Shown here piece by piece: positions 243 to 8,545 of a DNA stretch of 32,000 nt (its first letter is position 1; each line of letters opens with the position of its first letter). Position numbers and translations under genes: made by a program. The stretch is from positions 180,001-212,000 of the forward strand of contig NZ_CP043316.1 of assembly GCF_008189405.1 (NCBI RefSeq), read 5' to 3'. The DNA comes from Candidatus Saccharimonadota bacterium. Lineage in GTDB: Bacteria > Pseudomonadota > Alphaproteobacteria > CAJXXZ01 > 1604HC. Below the pieces are notes generated by a model. The model was not told the origin of the DNA, searched no databases, and worked only from the letters and a program-made list of their open reading frames with translations.

Positions 243-404
243 AAAATAACAACTAATCTAAAATATATATAAGTAAAAATTCAATAATATTTGTAAGATT
301 TTTAATTATTATTATAAAATTATTGTTTTTTATTGTTTTTTGCATAATATTTTGACGAAAACTTAAGTATATTGATCTTAAATAGAATCAAGAGAGGTTT
401 GCAA

Positions 405-2375
405 ATGGGAGAAAGTATACAAAAATCACTATTAAGAGTTAGACCTCCTCGTGTACGTATAACTTACGATGTAGAAACAGGCGGAGCAGTTCAGAAAAAA
501 GAACTTCCTTTTGTCTTGGGTATCATTTCTGATTTATATGGTCATCAAGAGGAGCGTGTGGACTTTAAAGATAGAAGATTCACTGTCATAGACAGAGATA
601 ACTTCGAGCACGTTATGGAGTCAATTAATCCAAAATTGAATCTTTCAGTTAATAATGTGTTAGAAGCAAGTAAGGATGATAAGAAAAAGAAAGCTGAAGG
701 TTCTAATATCGGCTTAGAATTATTTTTCAATACTATGGATGATTTTAATCCAGTTAATATTGTGAGAAAAGTTCCTGAATTAAATGCATTTCTTGAAGAT
801 CATGAGTTATTAGTAGATTTAGCAACTAAATTAGATTCTAATAATGATTTGAATGATATGTTAGGTAAGGCAATAGCTGATAAAGGAATTGCATCTAAAA
901 TTGTATCAGAGTCTAAAGATGTTACAAAAGCATCAGCAGAAATGGATAAGATCATTAAGGATAGTGGATTGTTTGTTCCAGATCCTGAAGATAAAGATTC
1001 AACTGAAATTGTAAAATATAGAAAAATGATTGCATCATTATTTAGAAATATGACAGCAGAAACAACAGAAGTTGCGCATCTATATCCATATATGATGGAT
1101 ATGATTGCTAAGATTGATGAGAAGATTTCTTTGCAATTGGATGAAGTGTTGCATCATGAAGATTTCCAAACATTAGAAGCATCCTGGAGAGGAATGCATT
1201 ACGTTGTAATGAATTCAGAAACAGGTACAAGTCTAAAAATCAGAATATTTGCTGCTACTAAAGATGAAGTACAACAAGATCTGGAACGTGCAATAGAGTT
1301 TGACCAAAGCGTATTATTTAGAAGAATTTATGAAGAAGAGTTTGGTACTCTAGGTGGTTCTCCATATTCTTGTTTATTAGGAGATTTCTACATTGGTAAA
1401 AAACCAACAGATGTTTCATTGATTAGAAAAATCAGTCAAGTAGCAGCTGCAGCACATACACCATTTTTGGCTGCTGCAAATCCTAATCTATTTGATTTGA
1501 ATTCTTATAATGAGTTGCATGTCCCAAGAGATTTAAAGAAAATATTTGAAAACTCAGAATTGACTGCATGGAATAGTTTCCGTGATATGGAAGATTCAAG
1601 ATATGTAAACTTATTCTTGCCAAGAGTATTGGTAAGATTACCATATGGTGAAGATACAATTCCAGTAAAGGGTTTCAACTATAATGAAGCTGTAGATGGA
1701 ATGGATAACTCAAAATTCTGTTGGGGTAACCCTGCATATGCAATGGCATTAAGAATCACAACTGCCTTTGCACAATATGGATGGACCGCAGCAATTAGAG
1801 GTATAGAAGGTGGTGGACTTGTTGAAAATCTACCAGCTTATACTTTTAAAACATCTTATGGTGATATTGCATTGAAGTGTCCAACTGAGGTTATGATTAC
1901 TGATAGGCGTGAAAAAGAGTTGAGTGATCTTGGATTTATATCTTTATGTCATAATAAAGGTACAGATAAAGCTGTTTTCTTTAGTGCACAAAGTACACAA
2001 AGACCAAAAGAATATGATATGGATTCTGCTACTGCAAATGCTGCATTATCAGCAAGGCTAACATATATGCTTAATGTATCCAGATTTGCTCACTACATTA
2101 AAATGTTAATGAGAGATAAAATTGGATCATTTGCTTCTAAAGATGATGTGCAGCTTTACTTGAATAACTGGATTGCGAATTATGTATTCTTATCCGATCA
2201 AGGTGGACAAGATACTAAAGCAAAATATCCTCTTAGAGAAGCAGCAATTGAAGTAGTTGCAGATGATAGTAATCCTGGATCGTACAAAGCAGTTATATTC
2301 TTGAAACCTCATTTCCAATTGGAAGAATTAGAAGTTTCATTAAGACTGGTAGCTACTTTACCAGGACAGGAATAA
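405..2375 (+). CDS. tssB-tssC: Fused T6SS contractile sheath protein, with a TssB/VipA-like N-terminal part and a TssC/VipB-like C-terminal part in one ORF
   Basis: The N-terminus RVRITYDVETGGAVQKKELPFVLGIISDL plus ...FFNTMDDFNPVNIVRKVPEL... is TssB-like. From about aa 240 the TssC motifs follow: LEASWRGMHYVV, AIEFDQSVLFRRIYEEEFGTLGGSPYSCLLGDFYIG, HTPFLAAANP, LPRVLVRLPYG, GNPAYAMALRIT, ITDRREKELSDLGFISL, KYPLREAAIEV, FLKPHFQLEEL. There is no stop between the two parts. The tracked ORF starts at TTG 372. ATG 405 is preferred because AGAGAGG (391-397) lies upstream. Confidence 0.85.
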   Translation: MGESIQKSLLRVRPPRVRITYDVETGGAVQKKELPFVLGIISDLYGHQEERVDFKDRRFTVIDRDNFEHVMESINPKLNLSVNNVLEASKDDKKKKAEGSNIGLELFFNTMDDFNPVNIVRKVPELNAFLEDHELLVDLATKLDSNNDLNDMLGKAIADKGIASKIVSESKDVTKASAEMDKIIKDSGLFVPDPEDKDSTEIVKYRKMIASLFRNMTAETTEVAHLYPYMMDMIAKIDEKISLQLDEVLHHEDFQTLEASWRGMHYVVMNSETGTSLKIRIFAATKDEVQQDLERAIEFDQSVLFRRIYEEEFGTLGGSPYSCLLGDFYIGKKPTDVSLIRKISQVAAAAHTPFLAAANPNLFDLNSYNELHVPRDLKKIFENSELTAWNSFRDMEDSRYVNLFLPRVLVRLPYGEDTIPVKGFNYNEAVDGMDNSKFCWGNPAYAMALRITTAFAQYGWTAAIRGIEGGGLVENLPAYTFKTSYGDIALKCPTEVMITDRREKELSDLGFISLCHNKGTDKAVFFSAQSTQRPKEYDMDSATANAALSARLTYMLNVSRFAHYIKMLMRDKIGSFASKDDVQLYLNNWIANYVFLSDQGGQDTKAKYPLREAAIEVVADDSNPGSYKAVIFLKPHFQLEELEVSLRLVATLPGQE

Positions 2376-6785: not shown

Positions 6786-8545
6786 TGAGACAGGCTAACT
6801 TTCTTCCAAGCTTGTTTCTCATACTCTTTATAAACTGTGATATCAACTAGGTTATTAAATGGAGCGGCTTGTAATAAAATATTGCTTAATAGCATTGATA
6901 GCAAGAAAATCTCTGCAGTATAATCATCGAATGTTATATCAAATATGATCTTAGGAATGGAAGAAGTTGGTGAGTGTTTTGCTCTTCCAATAGATTCAGT
7001 ATAATCAATTTTTACAATAGATTTCCCATGATGCTTTATATCTTTTCGCACACTATATATTGCAAGCATTTTTTGTAATGTTTGAATATTGTTATTATTG
7101 ATTGATAAGTCTATATGATTTAAAGATAAATTGGAAATGATTGACCACTGTGCTTTACCTTCATGGCTTAGTTGGACGCTTTTAGTTGGTTGTATGATGT
7201 TCTTACAATATACTCCATCAATTTTATTGACCTGAAATATATTATTTACTTTAATATGTTCAGCTTCATTCCTGTTTGTGCATAATAAGTTTGCATATAT
7301 GGTAGAGGAATCTATGGAGATATTCTTCATGTTTTCATCAATAAATGCAACAAATACATCTGATCCTCCATGTAAAGAAGATTTACGATAATGGTACCAA
7401 GATCTGTTTGTATGGTTATAGTTATGGAATCCAAAATACTGGTTATAATTAATTTTATTATCTGGTTGTGTATTATCATATTGGAATATATTTTTCACAG
7501 TATGTATTTCAAATGATTCTTCATTTTTATGTGGAATTAGTTTATATGATTCAGTTTCATGGTTCACGATCAATGGTTCAGAGTTTTTAGTAAATAAATT
7601 AATCGCAGGTGCACAGTTAGTGGCAAGAATATGGTTATTTAAATGAATTATACTTGGGTTTGCTTTTTTACTTAATGGAATTAAAAGCTGTACATTTCCT
7701 TCTGGCATGATAAAATCGTTAAATTTCATATTTAAGAATAAGAATTTTTCTGGGAATGAGCTGTATTCTAATAAATTTCTATGTATATCATTACAATATT
7801 TTGGTATATCAAACAATGAATCATCTTGATCAAATCCCTTAGGATATATATATCCAATTGGTTCTTTTTGTAATAATTTATGTTTATAATCTGCGATGAA
7901 AATAGGGGTAGGAGATTCAGCCTCATACGCTAATATATTTTCATATAAATAAAAAGCAGAGAATGCATCTGAGTTAATAAATACATTTACATCTTTATTT
8001 GGTTGAAGGTTTTCTACATTTACTCCAAGCATAAAAGTATGTTTTACTGGTAAATCTGTTTGATCTTCTTTGATATAATGTGTTTTATGTATTTTTAGAT
8101 CGCTTAAATTTAATTGAGATGTTATAGAAAAAGTACACGCCTGATTTTGCGAATTCTTAGTTTTGATTTGAGTGTTTTTAGGAATAGTAATGCTTTCTTT
8201 TTGTGAAATATTTTTCATTTTATGAAATTGCACTATTGTACAAGAAGGAATTGGTGCAGTGAATTGAGGATATAGTGCAGTGAGTAAATGGTTGCTAATA
8301 TCTGATATTTGATCATCAATTTGATATTGTAATCTTGCATCAAAGAATGCAAACGCTTCAAGCATTCTTTTTACATGAGGGTCAGAAATTTTATTGGCAG
8401 AAAAATTTAATTCTTTTGCAATGGCAGGGTATTTATGAGCGAATTGCTCTCCCTCTTTAAGCAGATAATTCATTGAATTCCTGAAATATGGAAATAACTT
8501 ATTTAAATCAGGGTTATCACGATTCATGTGCAAATTAAATGACAT
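6782..8545 (-). CDS. tssF: T6SS baseplate subunit TssF
   Basis: The N-terminal block LFPYFRNSMNYLLKEGEQFAHKYPAIAKELNF...DPHVKRMLEAFAFFDARLQYQIDDQISDISNHLLTALYPQFTAPIPSCTIVQF is the TssF signature. The size (587 aa) is typical. Confidence 0.85.
   Translation of the reverse strand: MSFNLHMNRDNPDLNKLFPYFRNSMNYLLKEGEQFAHKYPAIAKELNFSANKISDPHVKRMLEAFAFFDARLQYQIDDQISDISNHLLTALYPQFTAPIPSCTIVQFHKMKNISQKESITIPKNTQIKTKNSQNQACTFSITSQLNLSDLKIHKTHYIKEDQTDLPVKHTFMLGVNVENLQPNKDVNVFINSDAFSAFYLYENILAYEAESPTPIFIADYKHKLLQKEPIGYIYPKGFDQDDSLFDIPKYCNDIHRNLLEYSSFPEKFLFLNMKFNDFIMPEGNVQLLIPLSKKANPSIIHLNNHILATNCAPAINLFTKNSEPLIVNHETESYKLIPHKNEESFEIHTVKNIFQYDNTQPDNKINYNQYFGFHNYNHTNRSWYHYRKSSLHGGSDVFVAFIDENMKNISIDSSTIYANLLCTNRNEAEHIKVNNIFQVNKIDGVYCKNIIQPTKSVQLSHEGKAQWSIISNLSLNHIDLSINNNNIQTLQKMLAIYSVRKDIKHHGKSIVKIDYTESIGRAKHSPTSSIPKIIFDITFDDYTAEIFLLSMLLSNILLQAAPFNNLVDITVYKEYEKQAWKKVSLSQ

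What the first reader, a model, noticed from the sequence alone, without database searches (positions are those of the whole stretch)
372..8545. Fragmented, possibly minimal T6SS embedded among housekeeping genes
Only four or five T6SS genes are visible: tssBC-hcp on the + strand and tssF-tssG on the - strand. The two modules are separated by ligA and bamD. The tssF-tssG pair has no tssE upstream, because the 217-nt gap is followed by divergent fabD. No tssA/J/K/L/M, vgrG, PAAR or clpV lies anywhere in the 32 kb. T6SS loci are normally contiguous clusters of about 13 genes. Here tssFG appears to sit upstream of bamD-ligA, a block that as I recall usually follows lpxC/recN in Alphaproteobacteria, so it may be co-transcribed with essential genes. 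Retaining contractile machinery in a streamlined, endosymbiont-like genome implies selection, for example for host or competitor interaction. It raises the question of which core parts are dispensable or relocated.
Basis: partly seen in the sequence, partly recalled or inferred. Interest (0 to 1): 0.65.

Follow-up and report, generated by a model that had tools for sequence, protein, structure and literature searches.

The report
Dispersed endosymbiont T6SS with hidden Hcp
These genes are two pieces of the scattered type VI secretion system already published for the protist endosymbiont Candidatus Cytomitobacter primus; it is not a minimal system, but its two sheath proteins are fused into one and it does encode the inner-tube protein (Hcp) that the literature reports as missing.

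Summary
Window 405-8545 carries tssB+tssC as one fused ORF, a 181-aa ORF 10 nt downstream, then ligA and bamD, then tssG-tssF on the minus strand. No other Tss gene was detected in the 32 kb.

The window is Ca. Cytomitobacter primus, a 622-kb Holosporales endosymbiont of Diplonema japonicum. Its 'modified T6SS' is published: George et al. list tssA,B,C,E,F,G,K,L,M, vgrG and PAAR. Midha et al. 2021 described the module layout [tssB-tssC-hcp], [tssG-tssF], [tssK-L-M-A], [ywqK-vgrG] in other Holosporales. So 'fragmented' is right and 'minimal' is wrong.

- The 181-aa ORF has no Pfam or NCBIfam hit but is a divergent Hcp. Evidence: hhalign 96% (E 3e-9), an AlphaFold model (pLDDT 75) whose top 50 PDB matches are all Hcp chains or Hcp1 fusion constructs (TM up to 0.83), and syntenic position. 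This contradicts the 'no inner tube' statement for this lineage.
- The TssB-TssC fusion is natural and widespread (>120 protein clusters). I found no paper describing it.
- The block tssBC-hcp|ligA-bamD-tssG-tssF|fabD is intact in four diverged genomes, so it is under selection.

The kind is known; this is a useful correction of modest interest.

The parts
405..2375 (+). Fused tssB-tssC: a single-chain contractile sheath protein of 656 aa. The mechanical ORF starts at TTG 372; the likely start is ATG 405.
   Evidence: Pfam VipA + VipB + VipB_2 lie in one ORF. NCBIfam TssB and TssC equivalogs both score above cut-off. Residues 1-174 align to a separate TssB (1-167 of 186) and residues 163-653 to a separate TssC (3-488 of 493) from Pseudomonas sp. 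R1-7. An AGAGAGG ribosome-binding site precedes ATG 405. More than 120 fused homologues exist.
2386..2931 (+). Divergent hcp (tssD), the inner-tube protein, 181 aa.
   Evidence: There is no Pfam, NCBIfam or PDB sequence hit. hhalign of its family against canonical Hcp gives Prob 96.1%, E 2.8e-9 over 154 columns; the reversed control gives 0.2%. The AF2 model has pLDDT 75 and pTM 0.71. Foldseek against PDB gives 59 hits at E<=1e-3; the top 50 are all Hcp chains or Hcp1 fusion constructs, with best E 6e-10 and TM up to 0.83. It sits where PF05638 Hcp sits in contiguous fused-sheath clusters. An AAGGAG ribosome-binding site overlaps the tssBC stop codon.
3133..4854 (-). ligA, NAD-dependent DNA ligase without a BRCT domain. 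A housekeeping gene that is last in the co-oriented run tssF-tssG-bamD-ligA.
   Evidence: Pfam adenylation, OB and HHH_2 domains. The NCBIfam LigA match ends at model position 561 of 664.
4980..5672 (-). bamD (YfiO). A housekeeping gene 93 nt downstream of tssG.
   Evidence: Pfam YfiO; NCBIfam BamD subfamily E 8e-16.
5766..6785 (-). tssG, baseplate subunit, 339 aa. It overlaps the tssF stop by 4 nt.
   Evidence: Pfam T6SS_TssG E 2e-40, covering profile positions 2-303 of 304. NCBIfam scores 141.1 bits against a cut-off of 143.3.
6782..8545 (-). tssF, baseplate subunit, 587 aa.
   Evidence: Pfam T6SS_TssF E 1e-99, covering profile positions 3-599 of 608. The NCBIfam equivalog scores 343 bits, above cut-off.
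8546..8762 (.). 217-nt divergent intergenic region between tssF and fabD. It is the presumed promoter region for tssF-tssG(-bamD-ligA). There is no tssE here.
   Evidence: ORF map; sequence; a short 21-nt tandem repeat at 8720-8775. The promoter scan was uninformative.

Best explanation
The window comes from Candidatus Cytomitobacter primus and holds two modules of the dispersed, Holosporales-type T6SS-i: [tssBC(fused)-hcp] and [tssF-tssG].

Shown:
- Both modules are intact.
- They keep their order and length across the Cytomitobacter/Nesciobacter lineage.
- The 181-aa ORF belongs to the Hcp family by profile comparison and by fold.

From the literature, not re-verified here:
- The other parts (tssE, tssK-L-M-A, vgrG, PAAR) lie elsewhere in the 622-kb chromosome. 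The machine is therefore near-complete and lacks only TssJ and ClpV.

Inferred mechanism:
- Single-chain TssBC protomers polymerise as a sheath around a tube of divergent Hcp rings.
- Assembly starts on a TssEFGK-VgrG-PAAR baseplate docked to TssLM.
- Contraction fires Hcp-VgrG and effectors out of the bacterium into the host cytoplasm, a mitochondrion or a co-resident bacterium.
- Without ClpV, the sheath is recycled by another unfoldase or not at all.

The layout BC+ Hcp+ | ligA- bamD- G- F- is what one inversion of an ancestral [F G bamD ligA] segment after tssBC-hcp(-tssE) would give. The ancestral order tssBC-hcp-tssE-tssF-tssG is still seen in free-living relatives. tssF-tssG are probably co-transcribed with bamD-ligA.
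For: Identity of the window:
- The exact TssBC protein maps to GCA_951805245.1 (OX638200.1, 622,378 bp), which is Ca. C. primus.

Hcp:
- hhalign gives 96-98% probability with a clean reversed control.
- Two independent AF2 models both retrieve only Hcp structures.
- Phage tail-tube matches are far weaker, with best E 1e-4.
- A strong ribosome-binding site sits 10 nt after the tssBC stop.
- All 20 loci with a fused TssBC in a complete ORF have a small ORF (180-212 aa where intact) immediately downstream. 12 of 30 such ORFs hit PF05638.

Gradient of cluster break-up:
- Contiguous BC-Hcp-E-F-G(-J?-K-L-M) in Bacterioplanes, Thalassomonas, Woeseiaceae, Trinickia and SAR324.
- BC-Hcp-E in Caedibacter and Thiotrichales.
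- BC-Hcp alone in Holosporales MAGs.

Conservation:
- The block is the same in N. abundans, CP060235.1 and ERZ25333236.
- Identity to C. primus is TssBC 66-74%, TssF 46-60%, TssG 40-54% and Hcp 29-42%. For comparison FabG is 60-71% and BamD 38-60%.

Rest of the system:
- George et al. Table S3 and the Midha et al. module scheme.
Against:
- Hcp is not recognised by any curated HMM. Residues 1-24 and 61-74 of the model have low confidence. Hexamer or tube formation is untested.
- TssJ and ClpV are reported absent, so function as a firing machine is unproven.
- There are no expression data for these genes.
- The promoter and terminator scans were uninformative in this 30% GC DNA.
- The inversion scenario is only one of several possible histories. 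In other Holosporales the two modules lie more than 10 kb apart.
Confidence: 0.85

Rival explanations
1. This is a genuinely minimal T6SS: sheath, tube and two baseplate proteins work without the membrane complex, spike and remaining baseplate.
For: Only these Tss genes occur in the 32 kb and in the 10 kb upstream. I could not scan the rest of the genome myself.
Against: - The published inventory for C. primus lists tssA, E, K, L, M, vgrG and PAAR.
- Related Holosporales keep the same genes in about four separate modules.
- From established knowledge of T6SS assembly, TssF/TssG cannot nucleate a sheath without TssK/TssE/VgrG.
Confidence: 0.04
2. The genes are decaying remnants of a lost T6SS, on their way to pseudogenisation in a shrinking genome.
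For: ClpV and TssJ are reported lost. Hcp has diverged beyond HMM recognition. TssG scores just under the NCBIfam cut-off.
Against: - All ORFs are full-length against their profiles.
- The block is intact in four genomes of 558-622 kb that diverged to 66-74% TssBC identity.
- TssBC is the best-conserved protein of the block.
- Reduced genomes delete useless DNA quickly.
- A strong ribosome-binding site and tight coupling of tssBC and hcp remain.
Confidence: 0.05
3. The 181-aa ORF is not the T6SS tube. It would be a tube-fold protein serving another machine, such as the tail-less gene-transfer-agent particles of these endosymbionts, or a lineage-specific accessory protein. The T6SS would then be tube-less, as published.
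For: George et al. and the 2025 Holosporales review report TssD as missing. GTA head genes without a detected tail tube exist in C. primus. UniRef names the C. indipagum orthologue 'Phage tail protein'. Hcp and phage tail tubes share one fold.
Against: - Foldseek strongly prefers T6SS Hcp (E 6e-10, TM up to 0.83) over viral tube proteins (best E 1e-4, TM at most 0.59).
- The profile-profile match is to Hcp of the same T6SS lineage.
- The gene is always the immediate downstream neighbour of tssBC, including where that neighbour is a PF05638 Hcp.
- Midha et al. independently flagged an Hcp-like protein in the [tssB-tssC-hcp] module of other Holosporales.
Confidence: 0.06

Closest known systems
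The 'modified T6SS' of diplonemid endosymbionts (George et al. 2019/2020, 10.1101/719211) and the four-module Holosporales T6SS (Midha et al. 2021, PMC8163844)
   Same: It is the same organism or lineage and the same genes. The modules [tssB-tssC-hcp] and [tssG-tssF] are dispersed among housekeeping genes. TssJ and ClpV are not detected. The proposed role is in host, mitochondrion or competitor interaction.
   Different: - George et al. and the 2025 review (PMC11909080) state that the inner tube (Hcp) is missing in Cytomitobacter and Nesciobacter. Here it is found.
- The main texts of George et al. and Midha et al. do not mention that tssB and tssC are one fused gene; Midha et al. contains neither 'fused' nor 'fusion'.
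- In Cytomitobacter and Nesciobacter the two modules are only 2.8 kb apart, with bamD-ligA between them. That linkage was not seen in any other lineage sampled.
Contiguous fused-sheath T6SS clusters of free-living bacteria: Bacterioplanes sanyensis CP022530.1, Thalassomonas sp., Woeseiaceae, Trinickia soli, SAR324
   Same: The fused TssBC is 51% identical to the window protein in Bacterioplanes sanyensis (P0119). Hcp lies immediately downstream, and TssF and TssG belong to the same lineage.
   Different: - There the cluster is contiguous: BC-Hcp-TssE-TssF-TssG, then either a small ORF-TssK-TssL(-TssM) (Bacterioplanes, Thalassomonas) or VgrG with DUF2169/pentapeptide genes (Woeseiaceae); a sigma-54 activator is adjacent in Bacterioplanes, Thalassomonas and SAR324.
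- Hcp is a recognisable PF05638 member in these clusters.
- In C. primus the cluster is broken up and Hcp is highly divergent.
Canonical T6SS-i with separate TssB and TssC. The closest solved sheath is PDB 9n4v (TssB 187 aa + TssC 493 aa). From memory, the gene order tssB-tssC-hcp-tssE-tssF-tssG plus a sigma-54 activator resembles subtype i4b, such as P. aeruginosa H3-T6SS.
   Same: Both sheath domains are present in full. TssC matches at E 6e-180 and TssB at E 4e-37 to 9n4v chains. The baseplate proteins TssF and TssG are the same.
   Different: - The two chains are joined end to end and about 30 residues shorter across the junction region.
- No ClpV-like gene lies within 10 kb of any of 20 fused loci, against 22 of 65 split loci.
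- The subtype assignment was not tested here.
Francisella T6SS-ii and single-chain phage or pyocin sheaths (T4 gp18). The comparison is from established knowledge.
   Same: Francisella also lacks ClpV and uses ClpB. Its parts have diverged beyond easy HMM recognition, and it works inside eukaryotic cells. Phage sheaths are single polypeptides like this TssBC.
   Different: The sequences here are clearly T6SS-i. IglB is only a distant match, E 1e-68 against E 6e-180 for T6SS-i TssC. Nothing suggests descent from the Francisella or phage systems.

Membership tests
T6SS-i (canonical type VI secretion system) | TssB (VipA) small sheath subunit | tested here: met
   PF05591 E 1e-42; the TIGR03358 equivalog scores 145.8 bits against a cut-off of 97.25. 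It forms the N-terminal part of the fused ORF.
T6SS-i (canonical type VI secretion system) | TssC (VipB) large sheath subunit | tested here: met
   PF05943 E 3e-128 plus PF18945; TIGR03355 scores 647 bits against a cut-off of 271.5.
T6SS-i (canonical type VI secretion system) | TssB and TssC encoded as two separate polypeptides | tested here: not met
   There is one 656-aa ORF. The fusion is shared by more than 120 homologues.
T6SS-i (canonical type VI secretion system) | Hcp (TssD) tube protein | tested here: met
   The curated HMMs fail. hhalign gives 96% at E 3e-9, the Foldseek top 50 PDB matches are all Hcp chains or Hcp1 fusion constructs, and synteny agrees. Ring formation was not tested.
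T6SS-i (canonical type VI secretion system) | Baseplate proteins TssF and TssG | tested here: met
   PF05947 E 1e-99 and PF06996 E 2e-40, both full-length.
T6SS-i (canonical type VI secretion system) | TssE, TssK, TssA, the membrane complex TssL/TssM, and the spike VgrG/PAAR | not testable with these tools
   They are absent from the window and from 10 kb upstream. They are reported present elsewhere in C. primus by George et al. Table S3. The genome could not be scanned here.
T6SS-i (canonical type VI secretion system) | TssJ lipoprotein and ClpV (TssH) ATPase | not testable with these tools
   Not in the window. Reported missing in C. primus. No ClpV-like ORF lies near any fused-sheath locus.
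T6SS-i (canonical type VI secretion system) | Core genes in one contiguous cluster | tested here: not met
   Only 4 ORFs lie here. They are interrupted by ligA-bamD and flanked by tadA and fabD.
Holosporales dispersed T6SS (Midha et al. 2021 module scheme) | [tssB-tssC-hcp] module | tested here: met
   Window 405-2931. The same module occurs in Holosporales MAGs and Caedibacter.
Holosporales dispersed T6SS (Midha et al. 2021 module scheme) | [tssG-tssF] module separate from the sheath module | tested here: met
   Window 5766-8545, on the opposite strand, 2.8 kb from hcp.
Holosporales dispersed T6SS (Midha et al. 2021 module scheme) | [quoted passage not shown] | not testable with these tools
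   Literature only.
Hcp family (PF05638 / TIGR03344) | Match to the curated family HMM | tested here: not met
   No Pfam or NCBIfam hit even at E 0.1. No PDB sequence hit.
Hcp family (PF05638 / TIGR03344) | Hcp beta-barrel fold with a single helix | tested here: met
   The AF2 model has pLDDT 75 and pTM 0.71. TM is 0.79-0.83 to Hcp structures 4tv4 and 8yun, and E is 6e-10 to 4w64.

The most novel reading that the evidence does not exclude
The fused TssB-TssC marks an undescribed T6SS-i lineage with a single-chain sheath, like a phage sheath, that works without ClpV. The lineage occurs in free-living Gammaproteobacteria, SAR324 and Trinickia, and in nearly all Holosporales.

Joining the TssB C-terminus to the TssC N-terminus buries the free TssC N-terminus. 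ClpV normally grips and threads that N-terminus, so sheath recycling would have to work differently or not at all.

In Holosporales this lineage also evolved an Hcp so divergent that the field has called the system 'tube-less'.
Probability: 0.3. Interest if true: 0.6.

Novelty: already known. Interest (0 to 1): 0.3.

Why it matters
- **Correction of the literature.** Two papers and a 2025 review describe the T6SS of Cytomitobacter, Nesciobacter and many Holosporales as lacking the inner tube, and build functional speculation on that. A tube gene sits right after the sheath gene, so the machine is probably a conventional firing T6SS. The only widely conserved candidate host-interaction system of Holosporales then needs no exotic mechanism.
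- **A natural experiment.** The TssB-TssC fusion is a ready-made single-chain sheath for structural biologists, and it may be linked to ClpV independence.
- **Retention in tiny genomes.** T6SS baseplate genes are retained, and possibly co-transcribed with essential bamD-ligA, in genomes of about 0.6 Mb. This underlines how strongly the system is selected in these energy parasites.

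Tried and rejected
- **Direct sequence tests of the 181-aa ORF.** It gave nothing against Pfam, NCBIfam or PDB. BLASTP and single-sequence hhalign against syntenic ORFs also gave nothing. Only family profiles and structure prediction resolved it.
- **First AF2 model.** Built from 3 sequences, it had pLDDT 49. 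Its Foldseek hits were already all Hcp, but I did not rely on it. A 13-sequence alignment gave pLDDT 75.
- **Genome-contig scan.** It suggested that fusions were everywhere. ORF analysis showed most 'matches' were adjacent separate tssB and tssC genes; about 17 of 80 loci are truly fused.
- **Hidden Tss genes.** I looked in the unassigned ORFs of the window and in the 10 kb upstream and found none.
- **Operon evidence.** The promoter and terminator scan was uninformative.
- **Metagenome scan with TssF.** It was meant to show whether tssFG-bamD-ligA linkage exists outside this lineage. No close relatives and no such linkage were found.
- **Literature on a natural TssB-TssC fusion.** Searches found nothing. 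PDB 9n4v could not be traced to a paper.
- **Rejected readings.** The eCIS / T6SS-iv reading was rejected because the equivalog-level matches are to T6SS-i. The phage or GTA tail-tube reading was rejected.
- **Not possible.** I could not locate tssK/L/M/A/E/vgrG in the C. primus chromosome.

Full report
**What is in the sequence.**
The window has about 30% GC. The ORF at 372-2375 (+) most likely starts at ATG 405, behind an AGAGAGG ribosome-binding site. It contains Pfam VipA/TssB, VipB/TssC and the VipB C-terminal domain in one reading frame. It passes the NCBIfam equivalog cut-offs for both sheath subunits. Ten nucleotides after its stop, behind an AAGGAG site that overlaps the stop codon, a 181-aa ORF starts at 2386-2931 with no Pfam or NCBIfam hit.

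On the minus strand follow ligA (3133-4854), bamD (4980-5672), tssG (5766-6785) and tssF (6782-8545). All four are co-oriented. A 217-nt gap then leads to divergent fabD. Every other sizeable ORF in the 32 kb is housekeeping: fabG, nusB, a 5'-3' exonuclease, glyQS, trcR, plsY, dprA, topA, accBC, class II RNR, xerC/D and efp. Four ORFs match nothing.

**Where it comes from and what is already published.**
The exact TssBC protein maps to GCA_951805245.1 (OX638200.1, 622,378 bp). The Diplonema japonicum genome note identifies that assembly as Ca. Cytomitobacter primus.

George et al. (10.1101/719211) described a 'modified T6SS' in this species. Their Table S3 lists tssA,B,C,E,F,G,K,L,M, tssI/vgrG and iglG/PAAR, and reports tssD (hcp) and tssJ as missing. 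tssH is not listed for C. primus. A 2025 review repeats the 'apparent lack' of tube and outer-membrane parts for Holosporales.

Midha et al. [quoted passage not shown] They also flagged an 'Hcp-like superfamily' protein. So the dispersal is known, and the 'minimal T6SS' reading is contradicted by the published inventory.

**The 181-aa ORF is Hcp.**
- Direct searches fail.
- An exhaustive profile search found only nine relatives. A second, alignment-based search found fourteen, all 'hypothetical' with no Pfam domain.
- Synteny gave the link. In all 20 loci that carry a fused TssBC in a complete ORF, a small ORF (180-212 aa where intact) follows immediately. Twelve of thirty such ORFs hit PF05638.
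- A profile of the window ORF's family aligned to a profile of the canonical Hcps with 96.1% probability (E 2.8e-9, 154 columns). With intermediates added this rose to 97.8% (E 1e-12). The reversed-sequence control gave 0.2%.
- A 3-sequence AlphaFold model (pLDDT 49) already retrieved only Hcp structures. A 13-sequence model reached pLDDT 75.2 and pTM 0.71.
- That better model gave 59 PDB hits at E<=1e-3. The top 50 are all Hcp chains or Hcp1 fusion constructs. The best E is 6e-10, and TM is 0.79-0.83 to the B. pseudomallei (4tv4) and HNBP001-Hcp (8yun) structures.
- Viral tail-tube proteins match far worse, with best E 1e-4.

The 'no inner tube' statement for this lineage is therefore most likely an annotation artefact caused by divergence.

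**The sheath fusion.**
The top 120 database homologues are all fused, at 622-740 aa. They come from Holosporaceae MAGs, Nesciobacter, bacterium NHP-B and the free-living gammaproteobacterium Bacterioplanes sanyensis.

Compared with a separate TssB/TssC pair from Pseudomonas, residues 1-174 align to TssB 1-167 of 186, and residues 163-653 align to TssC 3-488 of 493. This is an end-to-end fusion. The closest solved sheath, PDB 9n4v, has two chains.

In a rough NJ tree of the TssC part, fused and split forms intermix within one superclade. Fusion or fission has therefore happened more than once. No ClpV-like double-AAA ORF lies within 10 kb of any of 20 fused loci, against 22 of 65 split loci. 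This comparison is confounded by phylogeny and contig ends, so it is a lead and not a result. I found no paper describing the natural fusion.

**Evolution of the layout.**
- Free-living carriers keep BC-Hcp-TssE-TssF-TssG contiguous. In Bacterioplanes and Thalassomonas a small ORF, TssK and TssL follow, and TssM is also seen in Bacterioplanes. VgrG and DUF2169/pentapeptide genes occur in the Woeseiaceae, SAR324 and Trinickia clusters, and a sigma-54 activator is adjacent in Bacterioplanes, Thalassomonas and SAR324.
- Caedibacter and a Thiotrichales MAG keep BC-Hcp-TssE.
- Other Holosporales MAGs keep only BC-Hcp.
- In C. primus, N. abundans and two further genomes of 558-622 kb the order is tadA | tssBC-hcp | ligA-bamD-tssG-tssF | fabD-fabG-nusB, and it is identical in all four.
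- All ORFs in that block are intact. Identity to C. primus is 66-74% for TssBC, the best conserved protein of the block. It is 46-60% for TssF, 40-54% for TssG and 29-42% for Hcp. For comparison it is 60-71% for FabG and 38-60% for BamD. That rules out pseudogenisation.
- One inversion of [tssF tssG bamD ligA] would produce the present order. This is an inference.
- In relatives the tssG-bamD gap is as short as 42 nt and bamD-ligA overlap by 4 nt. No terminator was detected. Co-transcription with essential genes is plausible but untested.
- The bamD/ligA linkage was not seen in any other lineage sampled.

**Verdict.**
This is a real feature, correctly read at the gene level. It belongs to a system already published for this very organism, and it is dispersed rather than minimal. 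The value added is a correction (Hcp is present) and the recognition of a widespread natural single-chain sheath. Interest is modest.

Noticed in passing
window 10410-11408 (repeats at 10831-11042 and 11146-11219): The NusB-like ORF is 332 aa. Only the first ~125 aa match NusB. The rest is a charged, repetitive tail (EEERYRAEEAYYRMQEKEAEERYKEEEARYKL, then an N/D/R/Y-rich stretch), encoded by 108-bp x2 and 54-bp x3.7 tandem repeats. Orthologues are 131-133 aa in two relatives and 258 aa in N. abundans.
   Followed up: partly
window 3133-4854 (-): LigA is only 573 aa and matches the NCBIfam LigA model only to position 561 of 664, so the C-terminal BRCT domain is missing. Orthologues in relatives are 562-653 aa.
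   Followed up: partly
loci L003-L084 (genome-contig scan): None of 20 loci with a fused TssBC has a ClpV-like double-AAA+ ORF within 10 kb, while 22 of 65 loci with separate TssB/TssC do. [quoted passage not shown] There may be a link between sheath fusion and loss of ClpV. The comparison is confounded by phylogeny and contig truncation.
   Followed up: partly
loci L016, L017, L046, L049 versus L004-L008, L014, L040, L042: Within the Holosporales-like TssC clade a few genomes have separate tssB and tssC, while their neighbours are fused. All of them share the divergent Hcp family. This implies repeated fusion or fission, or some assembly frameshifts.
   Followed up: partly
window 8720-8775: A short imperfect tandem repeat (21 nt x2 / 19 nt x2.3) lies in the tssF-fabD divergent intergenic region and runs into the start of fabD. 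Its function is unknown.
   Followed up: no
window 15478-16671 (-), 16661-17140 (-), 24124-24957 (+), 28995-29636 (+): Four ORFs of 159-397 aa match no Pfam or NCBIfam family. The 397-aa and 213-aa ones have hydrophobic N-terminal or internal segments. The 397/159-aa pair sits directly upstream of glyQS in the same orientation.
   Followed up: partly
window 25101-28490 (+): A 1129-aa class II (B12-dependent type) ribonucleotide reductase with a TSCPD domain is retained in a 622-kb genome that is reported to lack vitamin synthesis. This implies cofactor import from the host.
   Followed up: no
L001 7260-7844 and 7884-9410 (just upstream of the window, before tadA): Two unannotated ORFs of 194 and 508 aa show only a very weak prepilin N-methylation motif (E 0.28 and 0.38). 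They might belong to the reduced T2SS/T4P reported for this species.
   Followed up: no
L002 (ENA contig ctg123403, 1.97x coverage): A second, low-coverage assembly of the same region splits tadA and the hcp-like gene into fragments (149 + 48 aa). These are most likely sequencing frameshifts and not real pseudogenes.
   Followed up: no
window 30609-30682 (-): tRNA-Lys (UUU) lies between xerC/D and efp. It is the only RNA gene detected in the window.
   Followed up: yes
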